Below are positions 17,710 to 36,750 of a DNA stretch of 64,000 nt, piece by piece. Under the pieces are notes generated by a model that had not been told where the DNA came from, made no database searches, and saw nothing but the letters and a program-made list of their open reading frames with translations. The stretch comes from Candidatus Poribacteria bacterium (GTDB lineage: Bacteria > Poribacteria > WGA-4E > WGA-3G). A program made the position numbers and the translations under genes. Location: positions 4,743,308-4,807,307 of the forward strand of contig OY764073.1 of assembly GCA_963668035.1 (NCBI GenBank), in the 5' to 3' direction. The stretch's first letter is position 1. Every line of letters begins with the position of its first letter.

Positions 17710-17765
17710 TGATCAATCCTCCGGTTCGGGGCTCCGCTTGAATCCATTCCCAATGTGAGATGTGC

Positions 17766-19964
17766 TCAGTCCCACAGCAGCACTGTACGGTCCCGTCCGC
17801 CACTTGCGAGTGTCTTGCCATCCGGACTAAACGATACACTATAGACGCTACCCGTATGACCAGCAAGTTTTGCCTTGAGACTACCCGTCTCAACGTCCCA
17901 CAAAAGCACCGTATAATCTGGCCACGCATCTCCACTTGCGAGTGTCTTGCCATCCGGACTAAACGATACACTATAGACGCTACCCGTATGACCAGCAAGT
18001 TTTGCCTTGAGACTACCCGTCTCAACGTCCCACAAAAGCACCGCCTGGTCCCCGGCATCCCGACTTGCACTGACAAGTGTCGTGCCATCCGGACTAAACA
18101 ATACTTGCCTGATTTCACCCTTATGCGCGAGTGTCCTTGTGACCTCACTGGTCGTAACATCCCACAAAAGCACCTTATGTGTATTGTCTATCTCACTTCG
18201 ACTTGCACTTGCGAGTGTCTTACCATCCGGACTAAACAATACGTTGTAGACACTGCCCGTCCGGCTGGTGAGTTTCGCTTTCAGGGTGCCCGTCGTAACG
18301 TCCCACAAATGAAGAACCTTACTGTCCCGAACCGCACTTGCGAGCGTCTTGCCATCCGGACTAAACGATACATTCCAGACGACATCCGTATGCGGTGTCC
18401 TTTTGACCTTACCTGTCGCAACATCCCACAAAAGTACCGTATATTTATAACCCTCCCCATGAATTCGACTCATACAGGCAAGTGTCTTGCCATCCGGACT
18501 AAACGATACACTATAGACCTCCCCTGTACGACCGGTGAGTTTCGTTTTGAGGGTGCCCGTCACAACGTCCCACAAACGCACCTTACCGTCCCAACTTGCA
18601 CTGGCAAGCGTAGCCCCATCCGGACTGAACGACACACTCCTAACTTCACCCATGTGTTCGGTGAGAGTCGCTTTCACAGTCCCTGTCTCAACGTCCCACA
18701 AACGCACTTTATCTTTAGCTCCCCTCTGACTTTGACTCCAATAGGCAAGTGTGTTACCATCTGGACTGAACAACACACGCTTAACCGCATCCGTATGTCC
18801 GGTGAGAACCGCTTTCACAGTCCCTGTCGTAACATCCCACAAACGCACTATATCGTCCTGGTCTCCGCTCTTACTCACAAGCGTTTTGCCATCTGGACTG
18901 AACAACACACGCTTAACCGCATCCGTATGTCCGGTGAGAACCGCTTTCACAGCACCCGTCGTAACGTCCCACAAACGCACTGTTTTGTCTGCACTCCCAC
19001 TTGCGAGTGTTTTGCCATCTGGACTGAACACGATACTACTGACCACATCTGTATGTCCAATGAAGGTTGCTTTTACCGTACCGGTCCCAATGTCCCACAA
19101 ACGCATCCCATACTCTCGGTCCCACTTATTATTGTCGGCACTTGCGAGCGTTTTACCATCTGGGCTGAATGATAAACTATTGACCCAATCCCCAGGTTGA
19201 GTGAGGGTCACTTGTACCTCACCGGTTGCAACGTCCCACAAACGAATTGTTTTGTCATAACTACCTGCAAGCGTTTTGCCATCTGGACTGAACGATAAAT
19301 TCCGAATCGCGAAATCCTCTCCCATGAATTTCGCTTTCAGGGTGCCCGTCACAACGTCCCACAAATGAACCGTACTGTCATAACTCCAACCACCACTCAC
19401 AAGCGTCTTGCCATCCATGCTAAACCAGACACTACCAACCGCGTTCTCAGGCTCGGTGAATTTCGCTTTCAACGAACCCGTCGCAACGTCCCACAAACGC
19501 ACCGTACTGTCATAACTTCCGCTCGCAAGTGTAGCACTATCCGGACTGAACGATAAACTCCCGATCCGACTCGTATGTCCGATGAATGTACCTTTCATAT
19601 TACCCGTCGTAACGTCCCACAAACGCACCATACAGTCCATATCCGCACCGCCGCTGGCAAGTGTCTTACCATCCGGACTAAACGCCAAACTATAGACCCA
19701 ATCCATACCGCCCGCAAGAAATGCCTGTTCTTCGGATGTTTTCGTATCATACAGCCATATACCGATATTACTCCCTACCGCGAGCAACGCACCGTCCGGA
19801 GAATACGTTATTTCTCCTATACTGCCTTTACCGAGACGTGCTTTGGCACCCTCGGGTAAACTGAATTGGGTATATGCCACAGATTGTGCGAACCCCGGAA
19901 AAATACTGACGCTCGAAACTATCAGGAGCGTTAAGGTCAACAAAAACGTTCTTCTTACTTTCAT
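17766..19964 (-). CDS. Secreted WD40-repeat beta-propeller protein (732 aa, about 16 WD repeats)
   Basis: A signal peptide MKVRRTFLLTLTLLIVSSVSIFPGFAQS is present. The repeated units are SFSPDGKTLASG...VRLWDV.TG. The C-terminal repeats are identical at protein and DNA level. Confidence 0.85.
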   Translation of the reverse strand: MKVRRTFLLTLTLLIVSSVSIFPGFAQSVAYTQFSLPEGAKARLGKGSIGEITYSPDGALLAVGSNIGIWLYDTKTSEEQAFLAGGMDWVYSLAFSPDGKTLASGGADMDCMVRLWDVTTGNMKGTFIGHTSRIGSLSFSPDSATLASGSYDSTVRLWDVATGSLKAKFTEPENAVGSVWFSMDGKTLVSGGWSYDSTVHLWDVVTGTLKAKFMGEDFAIRNLSFSPDGKTLAGSYDKTIRLWDVATGEVQVTLTQPGDWVNSLSFSPDGKTLASADNNKWDREYGMRLWDIGTGTVKATFIGHTDVVSSIVFSPDGKTLASGSADKTVRLWDVTTGAVKAVLTGHTDAVKRVLFSPDGKTLVSKSGDQDDIVRLWDVTTGTVKAVLTGHTDAVKRVLFSPDGNTLAYWSQSQRGAKDKVRLWDVETGTVKATLTEHMGEVRSVSFSPDGATLASASWDGKVRLWDVVTGTLKTKLTGRTGEVYSVSFSPDGKTLACMSRIHGEGYKYTVLLWDVATGKVKRTPHTDVVWNVSFSPDGKTLASAVRDSKVLHLWDVTTGTLKAKLTSRTGSVYNVLFSPDGKTLASASRSEIDNTHKVLLWDVTTSEVTRTLAHKGEIRQVLFSPDGTTLVSASRDAGDQAVLLWDVETGSLKAKLAGHTGSVYSVSFSPDGKTLASGDAWPDYTVLLWDVETGSLKAKLAGHTGSVYSVSFSPDGKTLASGGRDRTVLLWD
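17803..18043. repeat. Near-identical tandem DNA duplication (about 130-bp unit, 2 copies) inside the WD40 gene
   Basis: The ~110-bp core CACTTGCGAGTGTCTTGCCATCCGGACTAAACGATACACTATAGACGCTACCCGTATGACCAGCAAGTTTTGCCTTGAGACTACCCGTCTCAACGTCCCACAAAAGCACCG occurs twice, starting at 17803 and at 17937. Confidence 0.8.
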
Positions 19965-24156: not shown

Positions 24157-24527
24157 TACCATTTTCATTTTCTCCGACGGGTTAGGGTCTGTTGGTTTAG
24201 GTTCGGGGTGCGACAGAATGTCGACCTTTCGTCAATTGAATAGCCCTGCTATTTTGCGTCCGTCCTATAATTGTTTTCCATCGCGTTGGAGGCGTCTATC
24301 CTACAGACGACGTAAAGTCTCCCTGAACCGGTGCGCAAAGGCACCAGTGGATGTGGGGGTTCAGTGCATCCGTATGGAGAGGCACTGAACAGTGTGGAAT
24401 GCAAGGCACAATAACGACCTTACGAATTCCCGTTTTACGAACTGGGAATGCAGACTTCGTGAAGCACGTTCGGGTTGAAAAATCCCTCTGCCACTATACG
24501 ATCCCGAGATCCTGCCGTGTCTCGGAA

Positions 24528-25125
24528 CCCTCCACGACTCAGTGAGATTTTAAACAGTCTTTTTACGTGGGCATCAAATCCGTCAGGTTGCTGTAAGACT
24601 GTTAGCACCAAACAACCTGCCCACGACTCTTTGAGATTTTGATGGAACCTTTTACAGACTACAGGAAAATCAACAGGTTGACGAGAGGGATACCTTTTTT
24701 ATTTTAAGAATAGATATCATACACCGCTTTTTCAGACGGGGTACACGATGCAAAAACTGTTCGTTGATGCAGGGTGCATGTTGATATGTATTGATTAAAA
24801 CGGTATGAGAACTTCGTTCCAGTGCAGGCAGATATGTGAACACTGCTCACTGAAAGAACCCCTGCTTTCCATTTTCCTGTAACGTAGGTGTTCGCTGATG
24901 CCATCAGTGTCAGTTCGACCTTCTGTACTCTGTGAGATTTTAGACGACATGTTCTTATGGGATAGTATCTATCGGTGGTTGTGTTGATGTCGACCAGCAA
25001 CTCCCACTCCCACGACCGTGTAGGTATTTACGCGACGTTCCTCCATGTTGGTATTTTTCCGTCTCCATTTGGTGTCGCGCGTTCCAAGGAGACTGCCCAC
25101 GGACTCTTATTTCGAGATTTCGAGC
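24528..25125. repeat. Degenerate dispersed repeat motif CCCACGACTC-n-TGAGATTTT(A/G) (4 copies) in a 1.6-kb non-coding stretch
   Basis: Copies lie at about 24531-24556, 24613-24640, 24925-24946 and 25094-25125. There is no convincing ORF between 24157 and 25800. Confidence 0.4.
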
Positions 25126-25803
25126 GACGGTTTGCGGTGTAAAAGTTGGGTTCCCGTGTTGTCGCTGCGTCAGGGAGCCGCCCGCACCTCTAAAGAGTAT
25201 CGCACCTCGCAAAAGTCGTATTGGGCGTTGCATTCTCAATCACGTGTTAATTATACGATATTTTTTGGGTGTAGGGAAATAGAAAATGCGTCAAAATATT
25301 GTGATTCTATTGTTTATCTATGTATGATTCAATTTTTGTGCATTTTTTTCGGCGGTCAGTTATCAGTAAGTTGGCTATCAGCAGAGAAAAAATATATTGT
25401 TGTCTGCGTTTCTGTGAAAGTTATGAAATTTCACAGTATTTCACAGTAAGGATTCAAAAAAGTGTTTCGGTTACGGCTACGAAGTAAGGTGTGGCAAGGG
25501 TTTTGAAGGGACTATGAACCTTATCAATTTTTTGCGTACCTGTGAAATTATGATTTTAATGTGCGGGTTGTTTTGCTGACAAACGCAGTGGCGGGACGGG
25601 TTTACGGGCGTTTCTATTTTTGACACTTAAAACGAGTTGCTGTGAAATGTTTGTTGATGTGTCTAAGGTTCTGGGATCGTTGTTTTGCGGCGCGTTGTTA
25701 TGTTGTTAGGATGTGGTGCACTGCACGTCGGATCGCTGCCAAAAACTTTACACACCCGCAGTGTTACGTTTCTTAGCCATTACGCCCCTCCCATAAGTTA
25801 GGT

Positions 25804-26523
25804 TTAAAGTGTTTCTGTCTTTAGATAGCGTTTTAGAAATTCATCCAGGTTGAAGCAACATTCTTTGTACTTCTTGCCGCTTCTGCACAGACACGAACTA
25901 TTTAGGCAGGACTTTATAGGTTCAACGTCGTTAAAGTGACATTTTTTGTATTTCTTGCCACTATCACAAGGACACAAGTCGTTTCTACCAAGGTCGTACC
26001 GCGCGTAATTGATCATTTCAGCGAGGTACTCTCTGATCCCTTCGTCACCATGTGAGTATTCTTCCCAACGATCATTGTTACTCACATCAGTACCGAATTT
26101 TTCCACGTAAGAAAGACGATAGAAAAATGGAATTACGCGTTCGTGCATAAAAGATTTAATTCTAAGAGTTTGGTTCTCAGGACGTTTTATGCCTAGACAA
26201 CAAGTATTATCCTCTGGATTGATATGCAAATCAATGATATTAACGTTGCATTTTTGGGCGATTTCACGGTGCCTTTTACCGACTTCATATACTTTTGGCC
26301 ACCCATTCATGTCCAAATCTTCTAAGCATATTTCAACCTCAAAAACATCGCGAATCAAGAAACCTATTTCATCAGCAAAATTGCCAATTATCACTTTTCT
26401 CGCCTTGTCATCGTACACAGCACAGAAGTCAAGTTCACCTATGATTTTCCGGCATTTTTCGTCATATTGCAGGTTGGGAAAATGTCTATTTAACCATTTG
26501 ATTTCATCGGTACTTATCTTCAT
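25804..26523 (-). CDS. E2 (UBC)-like protein with two C-terminal SEC-C zinc-finger motifs; candidate CBASS Cap2-short partner
   Basis: LHINPEDNTCCLGI resembles the UBC HPN...ICL catalytic motif. CPCDSGKKYKKCH and CLCRSGKKYKECC are SEC-C motifs. It lies 6 bp downstream of the SMODS cyclase gene. Confidence 0.45.
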   Translation of the reverse strand: MKISTDEIKWLNRHFPNLQYDEKCRKIIGELDFCAVYDDKARKVIIGNFADEIGFLIRDVFEVEICLEDLDMNGWPKVYEVGKRHREIAQKCNVNIIDLHINPEDNTCCLGIKRPENQTLRIKSFMHERVIPFFYRLSYVEKFGTDVSNNDRWEEYSHGDEGIREYLAEMINYARYDLGRNDLCPCDSGKKYKKCHFNDVEPIKSCLNSSCLCRSGKKYKECCFNLDEFLKRYLKTETL

Positions 26524-26529
26524 GGCACA

Positions 26530-27498
26530 TTACCTTGCGTAGAGTTTTGGAGGACTTACGATAACAGGAGCAACCCCTTTATTTCCGTTATTATCTTTAA
26601 GTTCTCCAAAATTGTCACCGAACAACTCTCTCCACTTTTTGACACTTGCATTATGTTCCTTGGCATCAAACGCTTCGTTTATCTTAGCGTTGTAAAGGTC
26701 GAACATTTCTCGAAAGTGACGATATTTGTCTTGGTCCCAGTGTCTTGTAAAACTTTCTGTGGATAAGACTGGATTGCAAATTTCCGGCATAAAGACATTA
26801 GACTGCAAAAAACTGTTTATCCTGTTTGAAACCGTTTTTAGGGACATTGGAATATCCTTAAAACCTTCGCTACCTTCATCGCTAGCATAAACACTGTTAC
26901 CAATCAGGGTGGTTAGAAGGATTGATTTTACAGAAAAGTTACCTTTGTGGTCACGGAGAAATTTTAACAACCGCGTAACCCGCTTTAGGTTTCCATTAGT
27001 CATTCTTGTTTTTTCATTGAACCAATCTCTATAGCCAGTGCCATCAGTGAGTTCAAATTCATTTTCCTTGTTATTACAGATGAAGTACTTTTCCTCTTGC
27101 GTGAGCCAATCTTGTTGGGTAATGCATGGGACAATATCTAAGTGGAAGTCACCAGCATAATCGATATAGACACATCTCGTTCTTCTATGTACCTTATCCT
27201 TATAATTGTCGTTTCCTTTCAAACAATTATAGACATCATTAATGTAATCCCTAGGTTCTTTGTCCTCATCGTACGTCATGTACAAGAGCAGATCCGCGTC
27301 ATATTCGCGCGTCCCGACTGGTTTGATAATTGTTTTCAAACCGTAAGATCCCTGTCGCTCCGTTTTTTCGTACAAATCTAAATTTCCACTGAGGAACGTA
27401 TTCACAGCCGAGGAACTATTATTCAATCTTTGAAGCCTACTCTCATTGAGGTTTACCTCTTGGGAAAGGAAGTCTTGGAAATACTTTATATGCTTCAT
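26530..27498 (-). CDS. SMODS-domain nucleotidyltransferase (second CD-NTase-like cyclase, 322 aa)
   Basis: The GS motif QGSYGLKT, the DxD motif YDADLLLYM and a third acidic residue in CVYIDYAGDFHLDIVP form a pol-beta-type NTase core typical of CBASS cyclases. Confidence 0.65.
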   Translation of the reverse strand: MKHIKYFQDFLSQEVNLNESRLQRLNNSSSAVNTFLSGNLDLYEKTERQGSYGLKTIIKPVGTREYDADLLLYMTYDEDKEPRDYINDVYNCLKGNDNYKDKVHRRTRCVYIDYAGDFHLDIVPCITQQDWLTQEEKYFICNNKENEFELTDGTGYRDWFNEKTRMTNGNLKRVTRLLKFLRDHKGNFSVKSILLTTLIGNSVYASDEGSEGFKDIPMSLKTVSNRINSFLQSNVFMPEICNPVLSTESFTRHWDQDKYRHFREMFDLYNAKINEAFDAKEHNASVKKWRELFGDNFGELKDNNGNKGVAPVIVSPPKLYAR

Positions 27499-27640
27499 TG
27501 ATTTGATTCTCCTTATCTATTAATTGAAAACTCAAAAAAGATCAATGCTGTGTGCCAATTTGCCACTTTTGGGAGGGGGCGTAAAGCCTTTGACACTAAA
27601 TTCGGCACGGCGTTTGTTTTCTAAGGCTCCTCACATAGCA

Positions 27641-27800
27641 CTCCGCTAGAGTGCAAGGAGGGTACCTGTCTTTTCTATAGACATATTGCTCCGCTGGAGC
27701 AAAGAGACCTCTTTACAGATAACGACTTCTTCACGCCAGAGGCGTGATATGTCTATAGAAATCAATATCATTCGTAGCTGCACTCCAGCGGAGCGCTATG
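27641..27800. repeat. Degenerate inverted-duplicate member of the MITE-like TCTATAGACATAT repeat family
   Basis: TCTATAGACATATTGCTCCGCTGGAGC and GTGATATGTCTATAGAAA...GCACTCCAGCGGAGCG form inverted repeats. It shares the CATAGCACTCC(GCT/TAC)GGAGTGC palindrome with the copies at 44226 and 46909. Confidence 0.55.
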
Positions 27801-27865
27801 TGTTGACGAAGGATCGATCGATGGAAACCCCTCTATAACGAGACACTGCCGAAATATTTACACCC

Positions 27866-29032
27866 TTACTTGATTTTGAGCACTGTTCTTAATCCATTCC
27901 GGTCATCATATTCACATGCGAAAATCTCGGGGTCTGATTTTGGCAGAAGAACTCGCCCACATTCAACTGCAATCGGTGCTGGAACTGCTGGGATAATGGA
28001 GATCTTGCAGGAGTCTCCATGGACAGTCTGAATTTCGTTCAGCAATTTCCTATATTCTCGACTGAATCCTTCCAACTGCTTACGAGATTTCAAAAAATAT
28101 ACAGAAGGTTCGTCAATGGTTATTTCATAAATGCTGAAATTCTCCGAAATCAACCCTTCGTATCGGGTGCTATCAATTTTGCCGCTTAGAGACAATACGA
28201 TTGCAACGTTCCCACCACTCTTGTTAATATGGAGAGGGTTCACAATATAACATGTTTCTGTACCTTTTTCTTCCTCGGGCCAGGACCAGGTATGGTTTGT
28301 GTCATCAATATTTCTGTGTGACTGGTACAAATCCGCTGGAAGAGTATCACCAATGCACTTTCCCAAGGACATTAATAGTGGCATGGGACCGATGGCGAAC
28401 ACAGAAAGATGTTTAATCTTTCCTTCATCTACTCCTTCCTCAAAGTGCCACTTGATTTTTTGCTGAATCTCGCTTGCAAAAATCTGCCAGTACTCTGAGT
28501 CTCTATGACCGTCAAAATTGTTATTAATGATGTTAATTCCTTTTTCATCAGTTGGGTATTTGGGAAACATTGCATTACGATATGTCTCGGAGTTAATCGG
28601 AACAATTCTATCGCCTATATTCACGGAGAATAATAGGACAGTAGATTTATGAATATCCTCTGGATGTCTGGTTTGAATTTCAATTCTGTCCTCATGCTTC
28701 CATTTCCACTCGCTCAACAACTCTGGTGGGTATTTATCGGGATTATCATCAATTTCCTTATGGCATCGTCGGCACAGCAGCATGAGATTAGAGAATTCAA
28801 TTTGTAGATTCGTAGACTCTTTGTTCCCTCTTGGGCCATCTTGACTCGCTGCGATAATGTGCGTTACCTCCCCAAAATTTCCATCGGTTAACGTCAGGTC
28901 ATTACGCCAAACGAGTTTGTTACAGCCGCTAAATTCACAACGTCCTGCCGACCTGCCGAATAATTTCAACTTAGTATGCAGCGGAACGTTTTTGCGCGTA
29001 ATTTTGGGTTCTGGTTTCTTATCCTTAGCCAT
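27866..29032 (-). CDS. cap5: Cap5-like CBASS effector: N-terminal HNH endonuclease fused to a C-terminal SAVED domain
   Basis: HNH motif GRCEFSGC...EVTHIIA...NLMLLCRRCHKEID is present. A ~250-aa C-terminal domain consistent with SAVED follows. The gene is immediately downstream of a CD-NTase gene. Confidence 0.65.
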   Translation of the reverse strand: MAKDKKPEPKITRKNVPLHTKLKLFGRSAGRCEFSGCNKLVWRNDLTLTDGNFGEVTHIIAASQDGPRGNKESTNLQIEFSNLMLLCRRCHKEIDDNPDKYPPELLSEWKWKHEDRIEIQTRHPEDIHKSTVLLFSVNIGDRIVPINSETYRNAMFPKYPTDEKGINIINNNFDGHRDSEYWQIFASEIQQKIKWHFEEGVDEGKIKHLSVFAIGPMPLLMSLGKCIGDTLPADLYQSHRNIDDTNHTWSWPEEEKGTETCYIVNPLHINKSGGNVAIVLSLSGKIDSTRYEGLISENFSIYEITIDEPSVYFLKSRKQLEGFSREYRKLLNEIQTVHGDSCKISIIPAVPAPIAVECGRVLLPKSDPEIFACEYDDRNGLRTVLKIK

Positions 29033-29223
29033 ATGTTCAATCTCCTTTTTTCTGTTGTGATAGGTTCAGAATTTGGTTGTTTAATACCTACTGATAATCC
29101 TTTTGAATGAAAGGCAATTCAAAAAATACTACTCTTCAAAAAAATGGCCATGGAAAACCAAAAGTTATGTGTTGCAGCAGATCCGTTAATTATCAAAGCG
29201 ATAGTCTACAAAGCGTCCCTAAA

Positions 29224-30783
29224 CTACTCGATATTTACAACGAATTCTCCACTCCGTGCACAGCATATACTGTCTTTGACAATAAAGCATTCAATCCAAT
29301 GGACACCTTTGTATCGGGTACTTTCTTTCCGTATCGCACCCTCTGTTTCAATAGTGCCTTGGTAGAAGCCTCCACGAAGCCCATTTTCTTTATATGCCTC
29401 GGGTCCAGTATTTACAACTTGCCAATGAACTTTGTAAGGTCTCGGGACATTCGTTTTTGCCTCAAACCGTAATGAACAGGACTTCGGTAATGGTGTTGAA
29501 TCACTTTTGATTTGCCATGGCCGGAATCCTTTTCGAGAAACTGTCCCTGTAATTGTTACTTGCCCATTTGGAATCACGGGCCATTTTGGTTTCTGCCGAT
29601 GAGACACATTAAAACGAGTCAATTCCCAAGAGAGGCTTGCGGCAAGCGTAGAACCATAGTGGATCTTTCCTTCAGAGAGATTTCGCATTGCTTTGTCGAC
29701 AATTTGTTCTCCCAAGTGCGGTTTTAGTGATTTCCTAACGCTCTGGATATCACTGATTTCTAACGCGTAGGTTAGATCTAACTGTGCCTGTTTAATCCAA
29801 TCCATGAAACACTCCTTTCGGATAGGATGTTCCTGCCATTTATCGGCAAAGTTCTCAAGTGGATTTACTGGATTGCGTATGAGAGTCATGCCATTATCAT
29901 CACGTTTAATATGCTTATGCATGTTACTTACGACATTTAACAGGGCTTCTTGAAGGTCGGCTTCGTTGTTGTAAGCAAGAGCGGCGAGTGTCGTAATGAT
30001 GATAGAAATCGGTTTAGCCTTTTCATCGTAATGAGATTTGTTTTCTTCAAACCAGATGTCACGGTGTCGTTTTAATATCTGAATTGTTCGCTGAAGTGGC
30101 GTTTTGATTTTATACTCCGGAACATCCTCAACTCGCAGTTGAATCGATTCAGCAAGAGACTTTCGGATCGCGTTGAATTGAATTTCCATACAATTTTTGA
30201 ACCATTCTGCATATCCCTTTGGATTACTACAAGGCCAGTCTGGATGGATTCGCATGTAATTAGGATAAGTCCTATCGGTGATGGCAATCGCGAAATCTGA
30301 CCAGTTAGACTTTGGATAACCTTTTGATTCAAGAAGTTGTCTGAATGACTCTGAGTCTGGAATCGCGGGCAAAATATCCATGTGGAATTGGACATCATCA
30401 GCGTAATGAAGCGTCCAACAACGTCGCCCTTCTTCTGCTGGCGAATTCATGTTGCGCGCGTTAGCATAAAGCTTGATTTCCTCACCAACTAAATTCTTTA
30501 GATATGCTTGGCTAATTGTGTTTTTCTGAAGACTCAACTCGCTGACAAGGTCTATGTCATACTCCTCGGCATCGGAAATAGGTTTAGTGACCGTACCAAG
30601 TAGGAACGAACCTTGGGGATAAACTTCGGGATTGTCCTGAACAACTCCAGATTTATCCCGTTCAAGCCAATCACCGATAGATTTATAGCGTTCTACGGCA
30701 CGTTCGTAATAACTTGTAGGGATATCCAATGCATCAGATATAGCTTCAAGCAGTGGACTGAACTGTTCTGAATAAATGTGCAT
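29224..30783 (-). CDS. cGAS/DncV-like nucleotidyltransferase (CD-NTase, 519 aa)
   Basis: PQGSFLLGT is the GS motif, EEYDIDLV the DxD motif and a later DVQFHMDILPA supplies the third Asp. The gene lies between capV and cap5. Confidence 0.65.
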   Translation of the reverse strand: MHIYSEQFSPLLEAISDALDIPTSYYERAVERYKSIGDWLERDKSGVVQDNPEVYPQGSFLLGTVTKPISDAEEYDIDLVSELSLQKNTISQAYLKNLVGEEIKLYANARNMNSPAEEGRRCWTLHYADDVQFHMDILPAIPDSESFRQLLESKGYPKSNWSDFAIAITDRTYPNYMRIHPDWPCSNPKGYAEWFKNCMEIQFNAIRKSLAESIQLRVEDVPEYKIKTPLQRTIQILKRHRDIWFEENKSHYDEKAKPISIIITTLAALAYNNEADLQEALLNVVSNMHKHIKRDDNGMTLIRNPVNPLENFADKWQEHPIRKECFMDWIKQAQLDLTYALEISDIQSVRKSLKPHLGEQIVDKAMRNLSEGKIHYGSTLAASLSWELTRFNVSHRQKPKWPVIPNGQVTITGTVSRKGFRPWQIKSDSTPLPKSCSLRFEAKTNVPRPYKVHWQVVNTGPEAYKENGLRGGFYQGTIETEGAIRKESTRYKGVHWIECFIVKDSICCARSGEFVVNIE

Positions 30784-30799
30784 ATTTCAAAATTCCTTC

Positions 30800-31735
30800 T
30801 TATTTATGGAAAGCATTGAAGGGTTCAGTGGGATTACGCAAAAAAACCTCGCGGAGTTTAGGCAACGCGTGCCGAGCTTGAAACGTCCCAAGACCTTTCA
30901 AGGAGTCAATTTCTTCTATTCCGTCCAAACTAAATTTCCCTTTGGACACATCTTCGTCAATTCTGATGATGTTATCGTGTCCTGCAAGAAGTTGTGCTGT
31001 TCCGAGAGACGCACTAGATTGTGCATGCATAAATACATCAAGAAGCTTAAATGCCCAATATGATTTACCGAGCGGACTTTTTCGTCCTCTGTTAACGTTC
31101 AATGGCTCAGTGGTACAACCTAAACTTAAGACCTTTAGAGAATCCCTCGGCCAGTCAAGCACCGTAATTGCCTCAACAACAGACATTCCAACAGGGTTAT
31201 TTGCCCATACACCGCCATCTATCAAAGGAGTTCCAACAGGAGAACGATGAGTGGGAAAGTAAGTTGGAGCGGCAGTGGCTGCTAGAGCTACATCAACTAC
31301 TTTTTCCTTGTAGTCTGTTTCTAATCGTGGATGATGGGCAGTTTTGTATATGCGAACTTTGCCGTTCTCAAGATTTAACGACGGAACAACGAGCCGATTC
31401 CTACTATCGCCCAGTTTCTTATCACCGAAACAGGTTTCTAATGCTTCCTTAAGCGGAGCACTACTATACTTAGTAGTCCCAGGCCACCTGAATTGACGGA
31501 TCCCACGGTTTCCACCAAAGATGACAGGGCCAAACTCCTCGTAAAAATTTAATAATTCCTTTGCAGACAACCCTAGACCTAGACCAAGGGCAATAATTCC
31601 ACCTGTTGAGGTGCCAACGATTAGGTCGAAATAATTCGCTACATTGTCCCCAATAGTATCTTCAACAGTAGCGAGAAAAGATGCGGGACACACGCCCTTA
31701 ATTCCACCACCGTCAATTGTTAGAATCCGTTTCAT
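30800..31735 (-). CDS. capV: Patatin-like phospholipase (CapV-like CBASS effector)
   Basis: DGGGIKG oxyanion motif, GTSTGG serine-hydrolase motif and DGGVWANNP (Asp of the dyad) are present. It sits 16 bp upstream of the CD-NTase gene, as in capV-dncV. Confidence 0.8.
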   Translation of the reverse strand: MKRILTIDGGGIKGVCPASFLATVEDTIGDNVANYFDLIVGTSTGGIIALGLGLGLSAKELLNFYEEFGPVIFGGNRGIRQFRWPGTTKYSSAPLKEALETCFGDKKLGDSRNRLVVPSLNLENGKVRIYKTAHHPRLETDYKEKVVDVALAATAAPTYFPTHRSPVGTPLIDGGVWANNPVGMSVVEAITVLDWPRDSLKVLSLGCTTEPLNVNRGRKSPLGKSYWAFKLLDVFMHAQSSASLGTAQLLAGHDNIIRIDEDVSKGKFSLDGIEEIDSLKGLGTFQARHALPKLREVFLRNPTEPFNAFHK

Positions 31736-31884
31736 CAGTTTACCTCCATTTACAGAGAGGTCATTTGGAAAAAACTAATTGATTTTCTTGCGATTTCATT
31801 AATTTTTGGAATCTTTAGTCAAGTGTCACAAGAGCCGGATATGGTCCCGCTCTTCCAACGACGAAAACCAACTGGCTCTGATTG

Positions 31885-32193
31885 TTAAGGTTTCCTTGGT
31901 TTTGTGACAACCAATTCAAATTCTCTATTCTCTCGTTGAGCGGCACTACGTCTGAACGTGGAATGCTGCTCTTGATGAGCATCAACAGTACTGGGAGTTT
32001 CAACCTCAACAATCTTGGTTCGATTCCTTCGTGTTGCCAGAATGTCAGGAATTCTTCCATTGTTACCGATTGGATCCGGCTGATCGAAATTCGGTAGATC
32101 AGCCTGAACTTTCCACCCTTTTTCTTTAAGCTCTTTTGCAAGAGTCCGAACTCTATTATCATGGGTGGATTGGTTTCTACTTTGCCTCCTCAT
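31885..32193 (-). CDS. Small PD-(D/E)xK (Hjc/restriction-endonuclease-like fold) protein leading the CBASS operon
   Basis: ELKEKGWKV...RIPDILA...KIVEVET matches the Hjc-like motif order (PDI..A ... hEVE). The overlapping ORF 31815..32162 on the same strand looks non-protein-like. Confidence 0.35.
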   Translation of the reverse strand: MRRQSRNQSTHDNRVRTLAKELKEKGWKVQADLPNFDQPDPIGNNGRIPDILATRRNRTKIVEVETPSTVDAHQEQHSTFRRSAAQRENREFELVVTKPRKP

Positions 32194-32254
32194 TGCAAAT
32201 CCTCCTATTTGTAGGGTAAGATATATGTGTATATAATACCATTAATAAATTCAT

Positions 32255-32281
32255 GTGTCAAGGAAAATTTAAAATTTGACA
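32255..32281. promoter_or_regulatory. Palindromic candidate operator GTGTCAA-N13-TTGACAC in the AT-rich divergent promoter region
   Basis: A perfect 7-bp inverted repeat lies in the ~310-bp, very AT-rich gap between the CBASS operon start (32193, minus) and the HTH-peptidase regulator start (32507, plus). Confidence 0.4.
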
Positions 32282-32506
32282 CTTTTTAATTGGAAAATTA
32301 TTACTCTTATATTTTTGTATTATATTTTAATTTTAATATATATTTTAATTTTTATTTAAACAATTATAATATATATTAAAAAATATGTCAAAAAATTAGG
32401 TGAATTCCCTAAAAAAAACCGATGTGTTTTTTGTCTTTACTTAAAAGTGTGTTTTCTGATATATTATATTTGCATGTATATTATCATTTGGGAGGAAGTA
32501 ACTGTC

Positions 32507-33745
32507 ATGAAATTAGGAGAGCGTCTTCGTCTCATTCGTAAAGAGAAAAAGTTGACCCTGAAAGATTTGGGTGAACTCGCGGATCTATCCGTGCCTTATC
32601 TTTCAGGTATGGAGCGTGGTGTTGTTAACCCTTCTGTAGAAACCCTACACAAAGTTGCCAAAGCTTATAATATGACAGTCCAAGACCTTTTTAGTGGTGT
32701 GGAAGAATTAGGGGAATCGACACATACTACGTATCCTACAGGATTTGAATCCTTTCTAAGGGACTTCGAGTCTAGTTATGAGATTATTAGTGATGACTGG
32801 AAAGAATTACTGCTAAAAATCAACTTTCGCGGCAGGCGGCCGTCCTCTCAAACGGAATGGCTTGAATTATATCTTTCTCTCAGACGAATTCTTTCACCCA
32901 AGGAGGAAAAGGTGAACGATCCGAAAAAGCATGTTATCAAATTGGTTCAGGATACTGTGAAAGAATATAGTTCAACTCAGTTGCCTAATTTTGGCGAAAT
33001 ATGCACTGGCTTGGGGTTAGATGTACAAGAAGTCTCGTTACCAGACGGGATAGACGGGATGCATAGAGGAAGAATAATTTTTATTAATTCCCAGATTCAG
33101 AATGAAGAGCGTAAGCGATTTACCCAATTTCATGAAGTCACACATTATTTGATTGAGAAGGATGGAGATATAATCTCTGATCTTCACGATACTACTTGGA
33201 ACCAGGATGATGGATACGAAAGGCAATTAGAACAGTTTTGCAATATTGGTGCGGCTGAGTTTTTGATGCCTAGGAAAATATTCGCGGGACTCTATAAAGA
33301 AAGGGAGTTTAATATTGAACTGATACCATATGCTGCGCGTTACTTTGGGAGTTCGACAACAGCGACAACTATACAACTTGCTCAAGTTGCCCCAAATTCG
33401 TGCATTACTGCTGTTTGTGAATTAATAGATAGTGATGCAGAATCGTCGCAAACTCGTCTTTCTGGCGCAAAGGATAACTCCACCAAGCAAAAATTGCATG
33501 TAACCTATTCTGCCTCGGCCCCCTCAACTAAATATTTGTTAGCAAAATACACAGAGATTCCTGGGGACCATCTGATCAATCAAGCATTTTCGCAAAGCCA
33601 ATCGGTTGGAGGGGAGAGTTACGTCCCCTTTCGAAGCGGTAAGAAAATGCCTTGCTATTGTGAAGCTTTGGCAGATGGTGATAGGGTTTATGTATTATTT
33701 CATTTGACACCCCCACCGGACCCTAACCAAATGTCATTGTTGTGA
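32507..33745 (+). CDS. Fused XRE-family HTH plus ImmA/IrrE (M78) zinc metallopeptidase regulator (CapH-CapP-like)
   Basis: ATG 32507 follows GGGAGGAAG. The N-terminal HTH is LTLKDLGELADLSVPYLSGMERG. The central HEVTHY (HExxH) lies in an ImmA/IrrE-like context. It is divergent from the CBASS operon. Confidence 0.7.
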   Translation: MKLGERLRLIRKEKKLTLKDLGELADLSVPYLSGMERGVVNPSVETLHKVAKAYNMTVQDLFSGVEELGESTHTTYPTGFESFLRDFESSYEIISDDWKELLLKINFRGRRPSSQTEWLELYLSLRRILSPKEEKVNDPKKHVIKLVQDTVKEYSSTQLPNFGEICTGLGLDVQEVSLPDGIDGMHRGRIIFINSQIQNEERKRFTQFHEVTHYLIEKDGDIISDLHDTTWNQDDGYERQLEQFCNIGAAEFLMPRKIFAGLYKEREFNIELIPYAARYFGSSTTATTIQLAQVAPNSCITAVCELIDSDAESSQTRLSGAKDNSTKQKLHVTYSASAPSTKYLLAKYTEIPGDHLINQAFSQSQSVGGESYVPFRSGKKMPCYCEALADGDRVYVLFHLTPPPDPNQMSLL

Positions 33746-33792
33746 TCATATTCCACTACACTAGTAGATAGTCACAAATTACTCCCACTGAC

Positions 33793-36750
33793 TTAATCAA
33801 CATACCAACTCGGAAAAGGGGTACCCTTCAGTTTAAGCTTCGCCAACTCCGCGTCAAGATCACACTTAGACTTCTTCCCGCCGTGGATACTTGGTTCAGC
33901 ACAGAGCATCTCGCGTAGCGTTTGCATTGACTCCAAAACGTTAGCACTCGTAATTCCTAACACCTTAGTTAACAGACCGCGATCCAATTCTTTGCGTACA
34001 GGGTCGTGGTTACATTCGTTAAGAGGCAACATCCGCTTATATTTTAAGCGTTCAAAGAGTGCCTCAGCGTTTGCTAACGCTGCATCCGAAAGTTCACGCA
34101 CATCCAGTGTCGGCAGACTACTTAAGGTTTTTAACCTCAATTTCCCGCGTCCAGCAGTCTGTTTGCCGCTGTGCAACCAGTGGCAGAAGAGTCCTAAGGT
34201 TGAATTGCACCACAGGGTCCATGGAATTTCATGCCGTGGATTTTCAAAAGCCACGTTCGTTATTAGGGTTGGACCGATAGCAGGTTTCTCAGTGAAAAGA
34301 GCCATTATTGAACAAGCGGTGAATCGCGGCACCATGTTGTAATGTGCTTTGCTATTTCGATCCATTCGCTTTTGCACCGCGATTTCGGCTTTGGGAAGGG
34401 GAATCGCGCGTGAATCTGGGAGGACGAGCATTGAGCGTTGGACTTCACTGTTTGCATTCCAGATACAAGGATACCCGTCGCTGTCAGGTTTATATCCGTT
34501 CTCTTTACGAAAGACACCTCTCACCTCAGCGAGGCCCAAAGTCGCAATATCTCCCACACGACAGATAGGAATTTTAATAATCGTTTCTTGTCGTTTTTGC
34601 ATCGGTAATTCTAATCTACCCCTTTTCAGGCGTTGTGCAGATTGGAGGAGTGCCATTGACTTGACGCGCGTTGCAACCCAGCCTTCATCTGCCGGTAATG
34701 GGCAATCGAGTGTATGTCCGAGGGTCTCCTCGCCGATCTTCATCGCATCGCCGCCGCTGGGAGTATCTTCTAACCGGTACGCCCCATTACTTCGGATGAT
34801 TCGGTTTGTAATCTCAAAAGCCTCAAGTAGACTCTGTGGACGTTGATTTAGACAGACAAATTTGCCACGCCCTGTGCTATCGCCTTTCCCCTTTGTTGCT
34901 ACAATGATACACTCCGCCATGTCCGTATCGGCAGAAAAAGCACAGTCAGTACCTTTTGCTTCAGCGATAGTTATGACAACTACATCGTGATATTCTGTTG
35001 CCCATAGATCACGGACCTTTTGCGAAGTCGGTGAGGCGAGTACCGTAGCAGGTAATATAAAACCCATCGTTCCGTTTCGTTTAAGCATCCTATCCGCTAA
35101 TTCTATAAAGTATGCGCTCAGACCTGCTTGTCCATCGGCAACCTGTGTTTTTTTCTTCCTGAGTATTGTTTGCATGATTTTTGTATATTCTTGAGGTCGG
35201 TCGCTGCCTTGAAAGGGGGATTTCGCGCCATCTATACCAGCAGGGTATGCGCCTGGTTTCGTAAAAGGAGGATTTTGAATAACGACATCAAATTTTCCGT
35301 ACGGAAAAGCGCGTTGAAGGTCAACTATCCTGTTTTCTTCGCCGCCGATCTGTTCAGCATCCGTATCAAATAACTTTATATCATCAAGCAATTCAAGTGA
35401 ACCAACTGCGTAATCACCGTTGTCTAATTTACCATAAGGTGCGGTGAGAATACGTGTTCCTCCCAATTTCATATCGGCATACCTACTTGCTAGGGCAGCA
35501 GCCGTTAGGTGTGTGGCATTCGGCATAACATCTGCACCAGCGATGTTTTCCTCAAGCATCTTTTGATGGATATCCCTACCGTTTCCGCCTCGCTGTTCGT
35601 ATAGGGTTAAAATACGTTGATATACACCATTGAGAAGCGCGCCTGTTCCACAAGCAAAATCCGCCACTTTCGGAAGCTTGCCTTTCGGCAGTTCAGGCAT
35701 CACGAGGGTTGATAACAACACCGCGCTCTCTGGTAGCGTATAGTTCGCCTTGAGGTATTTCCTATCGGTGATCAATTTTTGAAAGACTATGCCCGCGAGT
35801 TCATGGATTTGCGCGATGCCGGTGTCAACGAGGTCTTTTGCAGCTTCACACAGGAGCATTAAGATAGGCTTAACCAGTCTATCGTCGGTAGCCAGTGCTT
35901 CAACGAGATTAAGAGCATCTCCAAAGATCGGACGATAGTTGACCTTGAGAATCGTATTCCAGTCCGCGATAACATCCGCGTAATCAATTGTAGGTAGGAG
36001 TTGGCGGAGTGAACGGACCGATCCCATCTCCACTTTACCGGCGAGAGAACTCTGAAATACAAAGGCATCGGTGATAATTAGGGCTGCCATGCGGAGGGTT
36101 TGGATGTTCAGTTTTTCTGCTGTATCGCCATCTTTTTTAGAGAAAACCTCTTGCTGCAGAATTGTCTCAATTTTCGTACCAACGGCACGGTGTTCAGTGA
36201 TAGCGTTTTCAAGTAAGTAGGCTGCCTTGTTGACACTTTTTTCCATCTCTTCTGCTGCCTGTTCCAATTGCGCGTTTGGCATTGCGCCGACGTAGAGTGG
36301 ATTGGCGATGTCTTCTACCGTGCCAGTTGCCCATCCATTTTTTGGAAAGTGTCCGATGATGTCTCCGAAGGTACTAATGAGTTTATATTGTAGGTCATCT
36401 GCGGTGTTTAGTTGTGGTGTAATATCTTTTCCGCGCAGTGTTTTAAAACGGTCAGGATATAGAATCGCCATAACATTGTCGAGGGTTTTCGCGGCGGTAA
36501 AGTACTCCGCTTCCAATTCGTAAACAAGTCTTGATTCTGCTTGTTCGATGAGTTTTTTGGCATTGGTAGCAGTAGCGAATTTAGCCTCAATCCCGATGGG
36601 TTCTCTACCTCGCTCGATCACAAGCGCGTCAAGTTCGCTGTTGCCTTTGATGAAGGCATGGATAGCCGTTTCGACTTCCCAGTCGTGGCGCATGTTTCGT
36701 AGGATATTCACCAAGTGATTTGTAATTGTGGTTTCGTGTTGACTCGGCAT
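33793..36750 (-). CDS. Type IIG/IIL-like restriction-modification fusion enzyme (N-terminal PD-ExK-like nuclease region, gamma-class N6-adenine methyltransferase, C-terminal TRD)
   Basis: SAM motif I VADFACGTGALLNG precedes motif IV VIQNPPF. The N-terminal DALVIERGREPIGIEAK is a putative D...ExK. It is a 985-aa single polypeptide. Confidence 0.65.
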   Translation of the reverse strand: MPSQHETTITNHLVNILRNMRHDWEVETAIHAFIKGNSELDALVIERGREPIGIEAKFATATNAKKLIEQAESRLVYELEAEYFTAAKTLDNVMAILYPDRFKTLRGKDITPQLNTADDLQYKLISTFGDIIGHFPKNGWATGTVEDIANPLYVGAMPNAQLEQAAEEMEKSVNKAAYLLENAITEHRAVGTKIETILQQEVFSKKDGDTAEKLNIQTLRMAALIITDAFVFQSSLAGKVEMGSVRSLRQLLPTIDYADVIADWNTILKVNYRPIFGDALNLVEALATDDRLVKPILMLLCEAAKDLVDTGIAQIHELAGIVFQKLITDRKYLKANYTLPESAVLLSTLVMPELPKGKLPKVADFACGTGALLNGVYQRILTLYEQRGGNGRDIHQKMLEENIAGADVMPNATHLTAAALASRYADMKLGGTRILTAPYGKLDNGDYAVGSLELLDDIKLFDTDAEQIGGEENRIVDLQRAFPYGKFDVVIQNPPFTKPGAYPAGIDGAKSPFQGSDRPQEYTKIMQTILRKKKTQVADGQAGLSAYFIELADRMLKRNGTMGFILPATVLASPTSQKVRDLWATEYHDVVVITIAEAKGTDCAFSADTDMAECIIVATKGKGDSTGRGKFVCLNQRPQSLLEAFEITNRIIRSNGAYRLEDTPSGGDAMKIGEETLGHTLDCPLPADEGWVATRVKSMALLQSAQRLKRGRLELPMQKRQETIIKIPICRVGDIATLGLAEVRGVFRKENGYKPDSDGYPCIWNANSEVQRSMLVLPDSRAIPLPKAEIAVQKRMDRNSKAHYNMVPRFTACSIMALFTEKPAIGPTLITNVAFENPRHEIPWTLWCNSTLGLFCHWLHSGKQTAGRGKLRLKTLSSLPTLDVRELSDAALANAEALFERLKYKRMLPLNECNHDPVRKELDRGLLTKVLGITSANVLESMQTLREMLCAEPSIHGGKKSKCDLDAELAKLKLKGTPFPSWYVD

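What the first reader, a model, noticed from the sequence alone, without database searches (positions are those of the whole stretch)
25804..26523. E2-like protein with a non-canonical HxNP...CCLGI motif and tandem SEC-C zinc fingers
The candidate catalytic region LHINPEDNTCCLGI resembles the UBC HPN-x-ICL signature but has a Cys-Cys doublet. The C-terminus carries two SEC-C metal-binding motifs (CPCDSGKKYKKCH, CLCRSGKKYKECC) not typical of Cap2. This may be a variant E2 used for cyclase conjugation in an E1-less CBASS.
Basis: inference. Interest (0 to 1): 0.55.

Follow-up and report, generated by a model that had tools for sequence, protein, structure and literature searches.

The report
CBASS E2-like regulator with SEC-C zinc knuckles
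This gene encodes a ubiquitin-E2-like helper protein of a bacterial anti-phage alarm system (CBASS "type II short"); it belongs to a large, already catalogued but biochemically untested subfamily, so it is a fairly ordinary new member.

Summary
Window 25804-26523 (minus strand) is a 239-aa ORF containing LHINPEDNTCCLGI and two SEC-C motifs.

The E2 reading also holds:
- It matches the PADLOC CBASS "E2" models nearly end to end (E 1.9e-26).
- The AlphaFold2 model (pLDDT 82) has UBC topology.

The gene sits 6 nt downstream of a 322-aa CD-NTase, inside a low-GC CBASS island with no E1 or JAB gene.

The features flagged as odd are mostly family norms. Across 85 diverse relatives, H100, C109 and H158 are (near-)invariant. 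The first Cys of the doublet (40/85) and the Asn (37/85) are clade-specific. One SEC-C motif is the rule (110 of 150 representatives). The tandem second motif is a local duplication (26 of the 120 closest homologues).

One extra result: cyclases next to this E2 family end in P-x-K-x-[Y/W]-[A/G]-x (here PPKLYAR). Natural cyclase-E2 fusions keep this motif at the junction, and it resembles the SmCdnG tail.

Verdict: new member of a known kind. The likely mechanism is E1-independent attachment of the cyclase tail to C109. The role of SEC-C is unknown.

The parts
25804..26523 (-). E2-like CBASS ancillary protein, 239 aa (the finding)
25999..26523 (-). UBC-like (E2) domain, residues 1-175: helix 5-14, a meander of five beta strands between residues 18 and 80, an active-site loop, then long helices 122-143 and 159-174
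26188..26229 (-). Active-site loop LHINPEDNTCCLGI (residues 99-112). H100 and C109 are the proposed catalytic pair; C108 is a clade-specific neighbour.
   Evidence: H100 85/85, C109 85/85, C108 40/85, N102 37/85 in alignment A2. C108 119/120 and C109 120/120 among the close homologues.
26050..26052 (-). H158, within the conserved W-x-E-Y-S-H-G motif. It is a candidate counterpart of SmE2 H152.
   Evidence: 84/85 conserved. It lies 49 residues after C109, compared with 51 residues between C101 and H152 in SmE2. The equivalence is inferred; no residue alignment was obtained.
25933..25992 (-). SEC-C zinc-knuckle 1 (residues 178-197, C184/C186/C195/H196)
   Evidence: Pfam SEC-C stretch 180-197. 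Alignments to SecA and YchJ peptides. The ligand residues are invariant in A1 and present in 76-77/85 rows of A2.
25855..25893 (-). SEC-C zinc-knuckle 2 (residues 211-223, C211/C213/C222/C223), a clade-specific tandem copy
   Evidence: Second Pfam stretch. Present in 26 of the 120 closest homologues and in 1 of 150 representatives. It shares 28/39 identical bases with motif 1. Model confidence here is lower (pLDDT 64-68).
26530..27498 (-). Cognate CD-NTase (SMODS), 322 aa. Its stop codon lies 6 nt upstream of the E2 start codon.
   Evidence: Pfam SMODS 1.1e-30 and PADLOC Cyclase 7.4e-118. The nearest solved relative is SmCdnG 8hsb_A, E 2.7e-12.
26533..26553 (-). CD-NTase C-terminal tail PPKLYAR, the proposed E2 recognition and attachment site (A321, with R322 as leaving residue)
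   Evidence: The P-x-[KRQ]-x-[YWFH]-[AG]-x(0-3) ending occurs in 45/58 distinct E2-adjacent cyclase tails, in two cyclase types that are only 23% identical. It is retained at the junction of natural cyclase-E2 fusions. It is comparable to the SmCdnG tail P400 K401 ... Y405 G406 E407.
27866..29032 (-). HNH-SAVED (Cap5-type) nuclease effector
   Evidence: Pfam SAVED 2.1e-38 plus HNH. PADLOC endonuclease effector 7.2e-118.
29224..30783 (-). Second CD-NTase, with a C-terminal AGS-C sensor domain (519 aa). It lacks the E2-type tail.
   Evidence: Pfam AGS_C 3.3e-32 and PADLOC Cyclase 2.3e-197. Its C-terminus is ...GEFVVNIE.
30800..31735 (-). Patatin-like phospholipase effector (CapV-type)
   Evidence: Pfam Patatin 1.8e-26 and PADLOC phospholipase effector 4e-100. 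In most relatives it directly precedes the cyclase-E2 pair.
32447..33745 (+). Divergently transcribed HTH + M78 peptidase protein (CapH/CapP-like regulators fused in one ORF)
   Evidence: Pfam HTH_3 4.8e-13 and Peptidase_M78 2.9e-15. PADLOC capP 6.1e-25 and capH 1.4e-8. In related loci these are separate genes at the same position.
32363..32391 (-). Perfect sigma-70-like promoter match (TTGACA-17-TATAAT) facing the CBASS genes
   Evidence: 12/12 consensus match. This is a consensus match only; function was not shown.

Best explanation
The ORF is the ancillary E2-like protein of an E1-less ("type II short", E2-only) CBASS anti-phage operon. It pairs with the 322-aa CD-NTase encoded 6 nt upstream.

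Proposed mechanism, by analogy with the Serratia marcescens E2-CBASS:
1. The E2 binds the cyclase's flexible C-terminal tail (...PPKLYAR).
2. The H100/C109 pair attacks the peptide bond after the small residue A321. This releases R322 and forms a cyclase~C109 thioester without ATP or an E1.
3. The cyclase is then passed to a lysine, either on the E2 itself or on another cyclase molecule. This primes or activates cyclic-nucleotide synthesis.
4. The nucleotide signal switches on a killing effector. The island offers two candidates, a patatin phospholipase and an HNH-SAVED nuclease.

H158 probably assists catalysis near the active site, like SmE2 H152. The SEC-C zinc knuckle is a standard accessory module of this E2 subfamily, duplicated in this clade. 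Its role is not established. It may cap the active site or offer acceptor lysines, or it may dock to a partner.

Shown here: the fold, the family membership, the conserved residues, the gene context and the conserved tail. Inferred: all of the chemistry.
For: - PADLOC CBASS E2 models match residues 6-205 (E 1.9e-26); six further PADLOC E2 or E1-E2 models also match.
- The AF2 model (pLDDT 82.1, pTM 0.73) has UBC topology.
- H100 and C109 are invariant and H158 is 84/85 across 85 relatives with 24% mean column identity.
- Gene order cyclase-E2 is conserved in 61 pairs over 72 genome loci, usually as patatin - cyclase - E2 with divergent CapH/CapP.
- At least 14 representatives, and several of the loci, are natural cyclase-E2 fusions.
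- E2-adjacent cyclases of two types only 23% identical share a P-x-K-x-[YW]-[AG]-x C-terminus (45/58 by a strict pattern). The motif persists at fusion junctions. The E2-less AGS-C cyclase in the window lacks it.
- Published biochemistry on SmE2 shows that C101 and H87 are needed for E1-free covalent linkage and for cleavage of residues after G406. G406A is tolerated. H152 and K159 in the C-terminal loop handle the isopeptide step (bioRxiv 10.1101/2022.05.25.493364; PMC12948482).
- No E1 or JAB domain was found in the ORFs examined around the gene.
Against: - No sequence-level link to the only biochemically studied E2-only enzyme. Neither phmmer nor two family profiles found 8hsb_B.
- The partner cyclase is short (322 aa). 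It has no room for the C-terminal helix plus beta-sheet that recruits SmE2 to SmCdnG, so recognition must differ.
- The residue after the aromatic in the tail is L or R in the most distant relatives, so the attachment residue is uncertain.
- No lysine equivalent to SmE2 K159 could be identified.
- I could not inspect model coordinates. The proximity of H100, C109, H158 and the SEC-C is therefore unverified.
- Which of the two effectors this module controls cannot be told from sequence.
Confidence: 0.75

Rival explanations
1. The protein works only as a tail-processing cysteine protease for the cyclase. It removes an inhibitory C-terminal residue or linker, or separates fusion proteins, and makes no productive conjugate or cyclase chain.
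For: The conserved His/Cys pair and the retained tail motif at fusion junctions fit a processing site equally well. SmE2 has demonstrable protease activity.
Against: In SmE2, processing and conjugation are the same reaction, via the acyl-enzyme intermediate. The UBC fold is a conjugation scaffold. No data here separate the two activities.
Confidence: 0.12
2. It is a Cap2-style E2 that depends on an E1 adenylation activity encoded elsewhere in the genome, and it conjugates the cyclase to other cellular proteins.
Against: No E1 or JAB domain was found in the examined ORFs of the window or in locus L001. The two-gene cyclase-E2 unit, and its fusions, recur across phyla. The closest structural match is the E1-independent SmE2.
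Confidence: 0.06
3. It is a catalytically inert UEV/RWD-like adaptor. It uses its SEC-C knuckles to tether the cyclase to a cellular structure such as the ribosome, SecB or the membrane.
Against: An invariant Cys and two (near-)invariant His residues across 85 divergent members argue for catalysis. About one in eight full-length relatives lack SEC-C altogether yet keep the H/C/H residues.
Confidence: 0.05

Closest known systems
E2 of the Serratia marcescens E2-only CBASS (SmE2; PDB 8hsb chain B; Yan et al., bioRxiv 10.1101/2022.05.25.493364; Xiao et al. 2026, PMC12948482)
   Different: No detectable sequence similarity, even with family profiles. SmE2 is about 160 aa and ends in a loop carrying H152 and K159. 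This protein is 239 aa, with extra helices and two SEC-C zinc knuckles. SmCdnG is 407 aa with an E2-recruiting helix plus beta-sheet; this cyclase is 322 aa without it. Here the attachment residue is Ala rather than Gly.
PADLOC / Millman-2020 CBASS type II(short) 'E2' protein families (PDLC00872, 00865, 00871 and others)
   Same: Near full-length HMM match, E 1.9e-26, residues 6-205 onto profile positions 6-195 of 216. The match therefore runs through the first SEC-C. The operon logic is the same.
   Different: The second SEC-C (residues 211-223) lies outside the profile match. These families are computational catalogue entries without biochemistry.
Cap2 (E1-E2 fusion of type II CBASS; PDB 7to3)
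   Different: No E1 adenylation domain, no Cap3/JAB partner, and a SEC-C tail that Cap2 lacks.
SecA C-terminal zinc-binding domain / YchJ SEC-C motifs (PF02810; PDB 1sx0, 1ozb, 9l6b)
   Same: CxCx8C[HC] motif with flanking GRND and a GKKYKKC core. E about 2e-5 to the solved peptides.
   Different: Here it is appended, in tandem, to an E2 fold in a defence operon. No link to secretion is evident.

Membership tests
CBASS type II-short (E2-only) ancillary E2 | Match to curated CBASS E2 profile models | tested here: met
   PADLOC PDLC00872 E 1.9e-26 (residues 6-205), plus six further PADLOC E2 or E1-E2 models.
CBASS type II-short (E2-only) ancillary E2 | UBC-like fold | tested here: met
CBASS type II-short (E2-only) ancillary E2 | Conserved active-site cysteine (with histidine) | tested here: met
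   C109 85/85, H100 85/85 and H158 84/85 in A2.
CBASS type II-short (E2-only) ancillary E2 | Encoded next to a CD-NTase and an effector, with no E1 or JAB | tested here: met
   The CD-NTase lies 6 nt upstream. Cap5-type and patatin effectors are in the same strand block. No E1 or JAB domain was found in the examined ORFs. The same module recurs in 61 pairs over 72 loci.
CBASS type II-short (E2-only) ancillary E2 | Partner cyclase has a conserved C-terminal small residue (Gly/Ala) near the end | tested here: met
   The window cyclase ends PPKLYAR. 45/58 distinct partner tails end [YWFH][AG]x(0-3), mostly Ala plus one residue.
CBASS type II-short (E2-only) ancillary E2 | Covalent cyclase-E2 or cyclase-cyclase linkage and anti-phage activity | not testable with these tools
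   Needs biochemistry and phage assays.
SmE2-type E2-CBASS (Yan 2024 / Xiao 2026) | Sequence homology to SmE2 | tested here: not met
   phmmer and two profile searches of all PDB sequences returned only SEC-C peptides, never 8hsb_B.
SmE2-type E2-CBASS (Yan 2024 / Xiao 2026) | Long clade-G cyclase with a C-terminal helix plus three-stranded sheet that recruits the E2 | tested here: not met
   The cyclase is 322 aa. Core profile matches run to about residue 305, leaving only a ~17-residue tail. SmCdnG is 407 aa. The cyclase fold itself was not modelled.
SmE2-type E2-CBASS (Yan 2024 / Xiao 2026) | C-terminal loop with a regulatory His and an acceptor Lys (H152, K159) | tested here: inconclusive
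   H158 is conserved at similar spacing from the Cys. No equivalent Lys was identified, and no residue-level structural alignment was available.
Cap2 (E1-E2 fusion, type II CBASS) | E1 (ThiF-like) adenylation domain and a Cap3/JAB partner | tested here: not met
   The protein is 239 aa with only SEC-C in Pfam. No neighbouring E1 or JAB was found.
Canonical UBC/E2 (Pfam UQ_con, HPN motif) | Match to the UBC profile and a conserved His-Pro-Asn | tested here: not met
   No Pfam UBC hit at E <= 0.1. His is invariant, but Asn is 37/85 and Pro 32/85.
SEC-C motif (PF02810) | CxCx8C[HC] metal-binding motif above the gathering score | tested here: met
   46.9 bits against a cut-off of 20.4, in two stretches. 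Metal binding itself was not tested.

The most novel reading that the evidence does not exclude
The SEC-C zinc knuckle may be a functional part of the conjugation machinery of a distinct E2-only CBASS lineage. It could replace both the acceptor-lysine loop of SmE2 and the E2-recruiting domain of the cyclase. For example, it could offer its conserved lysines as the first acceptors, or couple E2 activity to a cellular cue such as zinc or redox state, or ribosome or SecB binding. The tandem copy in this sponge-symbiont clade would then double that function. This would define a mechanistically separate route to E1-free cyclase conjugation.
Probability: 0.15. Interest if true: 0.6.

Novelty: new member of a known kind. 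Interest (0 to 1): 0.3.

Why it matters
E2-only CBASS is one of the simplest ubiquitin-like conjugation systems known, and only one enzyme (SmE2) has been studied. This protein represents a large, sequence-unrelated E2 subfamily: 354 clusters at the 50% identity level. It is widespread in sponge-associated Poribacteria, Latescibacterota and Chloroflexota, and also occurs in Campylobacter.

The subfamily has a short cyclase partner, a sharply conserved K-x-Y-A-x cyclase tail and a SEC-C zinc knuckle. If the tail-to-C109 chemistry is confirmed, E1-free conjugation would be shown to be general across divergent E2s. It would also give a compact sequence rule (tail motif plus the H/C/H residues) for predicting which cyclases are E2-regulated. 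As it stands, the window adds a member, not a new principle.

Tried and rejected
- Sequence and profile searches of the PDB with the protein and with alignments A1 and A2 found only SecA/YchJ SEC-C peptides. I therefore could not align residues to SmE2.
- The afdb50 fold library was unavailable.
- An exact-sequence contig look-up for P0001 found nothing on record.
- Burroughs et al. 2015 (PMC4678834) is not held. A full-text search for CBASS plus SEC-C found no paper linking the two.
- Model coordinates are not exposed. Distances between C109, H100, H158 and the SEC-C lysines could not be measured. For the same reason I ran no further search on a cyclase-E2 fusion.
- No tRNA and no Rfam family was found around the island.
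- I considered and rejected a SecA- or YchJ-like housekeeping protein: context, HMM matches and fold all say CBASS E2.
- I considered and rejected the CC doublet as a di-cysteine active site: C108 is replaced by A, L, V or F in about half the family.

Full report
**Observation.** Window 25804-26523 holds, on the minus strand, an ATG-initiated ORF of 239 aa. The quoted strings are all present:
- LHINPEDNTCCLGI, residues 99-112.
- CPCDSGKKYKKCH, residues 184-196.
- CLCRSGKKYKECC, residues 211-223.

Pfam recognises only SEC-C (PF02810): E 2.3e-12, 46.9 bits against a cut-off of 20.4, in two stretches. The first motif aligns to solved SecA and YchJ zinc-binding peptides. The ORF is a genuine gene. 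It has 372 homologues at E <= 1e-3, including an identical protein from a 5.24-Mb genome.

**What the protein is.** Three lines of evidence point to a CBASS E2.
- PADLOC's CBASS "E2" models match almost end to end. The best is PDLC00872, E 1.9e-26, residues 6-205 on profile positions 6-195 of 216. Six further PADLOC E2 or E1-E2 models also match.
- An AlphaFold2 model built on 58 homologues (pLDDT 82.1, pTM 0.73) has UBC topology. It shows an N-terminal helix, a beta-meander up to residue 80, a loop carrying H100 and C109, then long helices.

Foldseek alone was not significant. Sequence and profile searches of the PDB never reached SmE2. The link to the studied enzyme is therefore structural and contextual, not sequence-based. 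Pfam's canonical UBC model does not match.

**Context.** The E2 start codon lies 6 nt after the stop codon of a 322-aa CD-NTase at 26530-27498 (SMODS 1.1e-30; PADLOC cyclase 7.4e-118). Further upstream on the same strand are:
- an HNH-SAVED (Cap5-type) nuclease, 27866-29032;
- a second CD-NTase with an AGS-C domain, 29224-30783;
- a patatin phospholipase, 30800-31735.

A divergent HTH + M78 protein (CapH/CapP-like, 32447-33745) and an Eco57I-like methylase (33793-36750) follow. None of the examined ORFs between 16.7 and 43.9 kb carries an E1 or JAB domain. The island has 35-44% GC, against about 46-53% in the flanks. A perfect TTGACA-17-TATAAT match faces the operon at 32391-32363.

**Family survey.** I searched 1.84 billion cluster representatives with the E2 domain alone (residues 1-175). 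It found 354 relatives at E <= 1e-3. Of the best 150:
- 110 carry one SEC-C motif, 1 carries two, and 39 carry none. Many of the 39 are fragments, but roughly one in eight look like full-length E2 domains without SEC-C.
- At least 14 are 525-607-aa proteins with the E2 at the C-terminus, apparently CD-NTase-E2 fusions. This was confirmed for the fusion ORFs found in the genome loci.

Among the 120 closest homologues, 94 have one motif and 26 have two. The two motif-coding stretches share 28/39 bases. SEC-C is therefore the rule in this E2 lineage, and the tandem copy is a local duplication.

In an alignment of 85 diverse members (24% mean column identity), the invariant columns are G29, H100 and C109. 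H158 is 84/85. C108 is Cys in only 40/85, otherwise A, L, V or F. N102 is 37/85 and P103 is 32/85. C109 is thus the candidate nucleophile. The CC doublet and "HxNP" are clade traits. There is no conserved HPN-type Asn.

**Related loci.** Seventy-two genome loci were retrieved. Most are MAGs of Candidatus Poribacteria, Latescibacterota, Dehalococcoidia, Caldilineaceae and Entotheonella. A few are Campylobacter or Sulfurospirillum. The window therefore probably comes from a Poribacteria-like sponge symbiont.

The dominant layout is patatin - CD-NTase (about 315-330 aa) - E2, often with divergent CapH and CapP genes. Other layouts pair a second cyclase type with the E2 and Cap5. The window looks like a reshuffled combination of the two cassettes seen side by side in close relatives such as L002 and L009.

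**The cyclase tail.** Cyclases directly upstream of this E2 end in a sharply conserved motif, typically V-T-P-R-K-P-Y-A-R. The window's cyclase ends S-P-P-K-L-Y-A-R.
- 45 of 58 distinct tails fit P-x-[KRQ]-x-[YWFH]-[AG]-x(0-3) at the C-terminus. 40 of them are Ala plus exactly one more residue. Most of the non-matching tails are near-variants.
- The motif occurs on two cyclase types that share only 23% identity.
- It is retained at the junction of natural cyclase-E2 fusions, about 10-20 residues before the E2's own N-terminus.
- It is absent from the window's E2-less AGS-C cyclase.

The published SmCdnG tail is P400-K401-...-Y405-G406-E407. There G406 is the attachment residue, E407 is removed by the E2, and G406A is tolerated. 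The resemblance (Pro/Lys, aromatic, small residue, one extra residue) supports the same chemistry here.

**Mechanism (inferred).** In S. marcescens, the E2 alone, without ATP, cleaves after G406 using C101 and H87. It forms a thioester, then an isopeptide to K159. It can reverse this with the help of H152, and it builds cyclase chains that activate cGAMP synthesis (PMC12948482).

By analogy, I propose the following for the window protein. H100/C109 attacks the A321-R322 bond of the 322-aa cyclase, giving a cyclase~C109 thioester. The cyclase is then transferred to a lysine, and H158 plays the H152-like role. The spacing is comparable: C109 to H158 is 49 residues, and C101 to H152 is 51.

There are real differences from SmE2:
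- No detectable sequence homology.
- A cyclase 85 residues shorter. Its core profile match runs to about residue 305, so there is no room for SmCdnG's E2-recruiting helix plus sheet.
- An E2 about 80 residues longer, carrying extra helices and the zinc knuckles.

The SEC-C module may compensate by supplying binding surface or acceptor lysines, or it may couple the system to another partner. Nothing here decides that. Which effector (Cap5 or patatin) answers to this cyclase also cannot be read from sequence. Gene spacing groups the block as [patatin - AGS-C cyclase], [Cap5] and [cyclase - E2]. In relatives, by contrast, patatin usually sits directly before this cyclase type.

[quoted passage not shown] It fails the tests for Cap2 (no E1, no JAB), for canonical UBC (no profile match, no HPN) and for sequence-level membership of the SmE2 type.

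The family is already captured by PADLOC models, whose match runs through the first SEC-C. Within the held literature, I found no paper discussing SEC-C in CBASS E2s. It is therefore a new member of a known kind, from a biochemically unexplored subfamily. The features flagged as unusual are largely family norms.

**Scores.** Interest is 0.3. The most novel reading still open is that SEC-C is an integral part of a distinct E1-free conjugation route. I put its probability at about 0.15 and its interest, if true, at about 0.6.

Noticed in passing
window 25804-31735 (- strand); compare L002, L009, L023: The island carries two cyclases and two effectors in the order patatin - AGS-C cyclase - Cap5 - cyclase - E2. 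Close relatives instead have two separate cassettes, [cyclase(-E2) - Cap5] and [patatin - cyclase - E2], side by side. The window looks like a recombinant or nested arrangement. The pairing of effectors with cyclases is unclear.
   Followed up: partly
window 32447-33745 (+): The CapH-like HTH (residues 27-81) and the CapP-like M78 peptidase (188-307) are fused in one 432-aa ORF. Most related loci have them as two adjacent genes (about 133 and 280 aa). L003 and L012 also show the fused form (412 and 417 aa).
   Followed up: partly
L009 8-1750, L023 5789-7651, L031, L035, L041, L043, L050, L061; P0121, P0126, P0139, P0150 and others: These are natural CD-NTase-E2(-SEC-C) fusion proteins of 525-620 aa. 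They keep the P-x-K-x-Y-A motif, then a 10-20-residue linker, then the E2's own N-terminal sequence. This suggests self-processing at that site.
   Followed up: partly
window 32233-32391 (- strand): Two very strong sigma-70-like promoter matches (12/12 and 11/12) lie in the divergent region between the CapH/P-like gene and the CBASS block. This is the expected place for CapH-controlled transcription.
   Followed up: no
window 31885-32193 (-): A small 102-aa ORF between patatin and the regulator has a sub-threshold match to AHJR-like restriction-endonuclease fold proteins (E 1e-5, 25.5 bits against a cut-off of 26.1).
   Followed up: no
window 24157-25803: About 1.6 kb downstream of the E2 has no ORF longer than about 130 aa, no tRNA and no Rfam match. 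It may be the decayed edge of the island.
   Followed up: partly
window 33793-36750 (-): A 985-aa protein with an Eco57I-type N6-adenine methylase domain abuts the CBASS island. It is probably a further defence gene (type IIG R-M or BREX-like).
   Followed up: no
window 17766-19964 (-) and 17760-19172 (+): A 732-aa WD40 repeat protein with 11 WD40 repeat matches in Pfam. The 470-aa ORF on the opposite strand is most likely an artefact of the repeat periodicity. Large WD40 proteins and the related-locus taxonomy fit a Poribacteria-like sponge symbiont.
   Followed up: no
window 25000-34000: The defence island has 35-44% GC, against roughly 46-53% in the flanking housekeeping genes. This is consistent with horizontal acquisition.
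   Followed up: no
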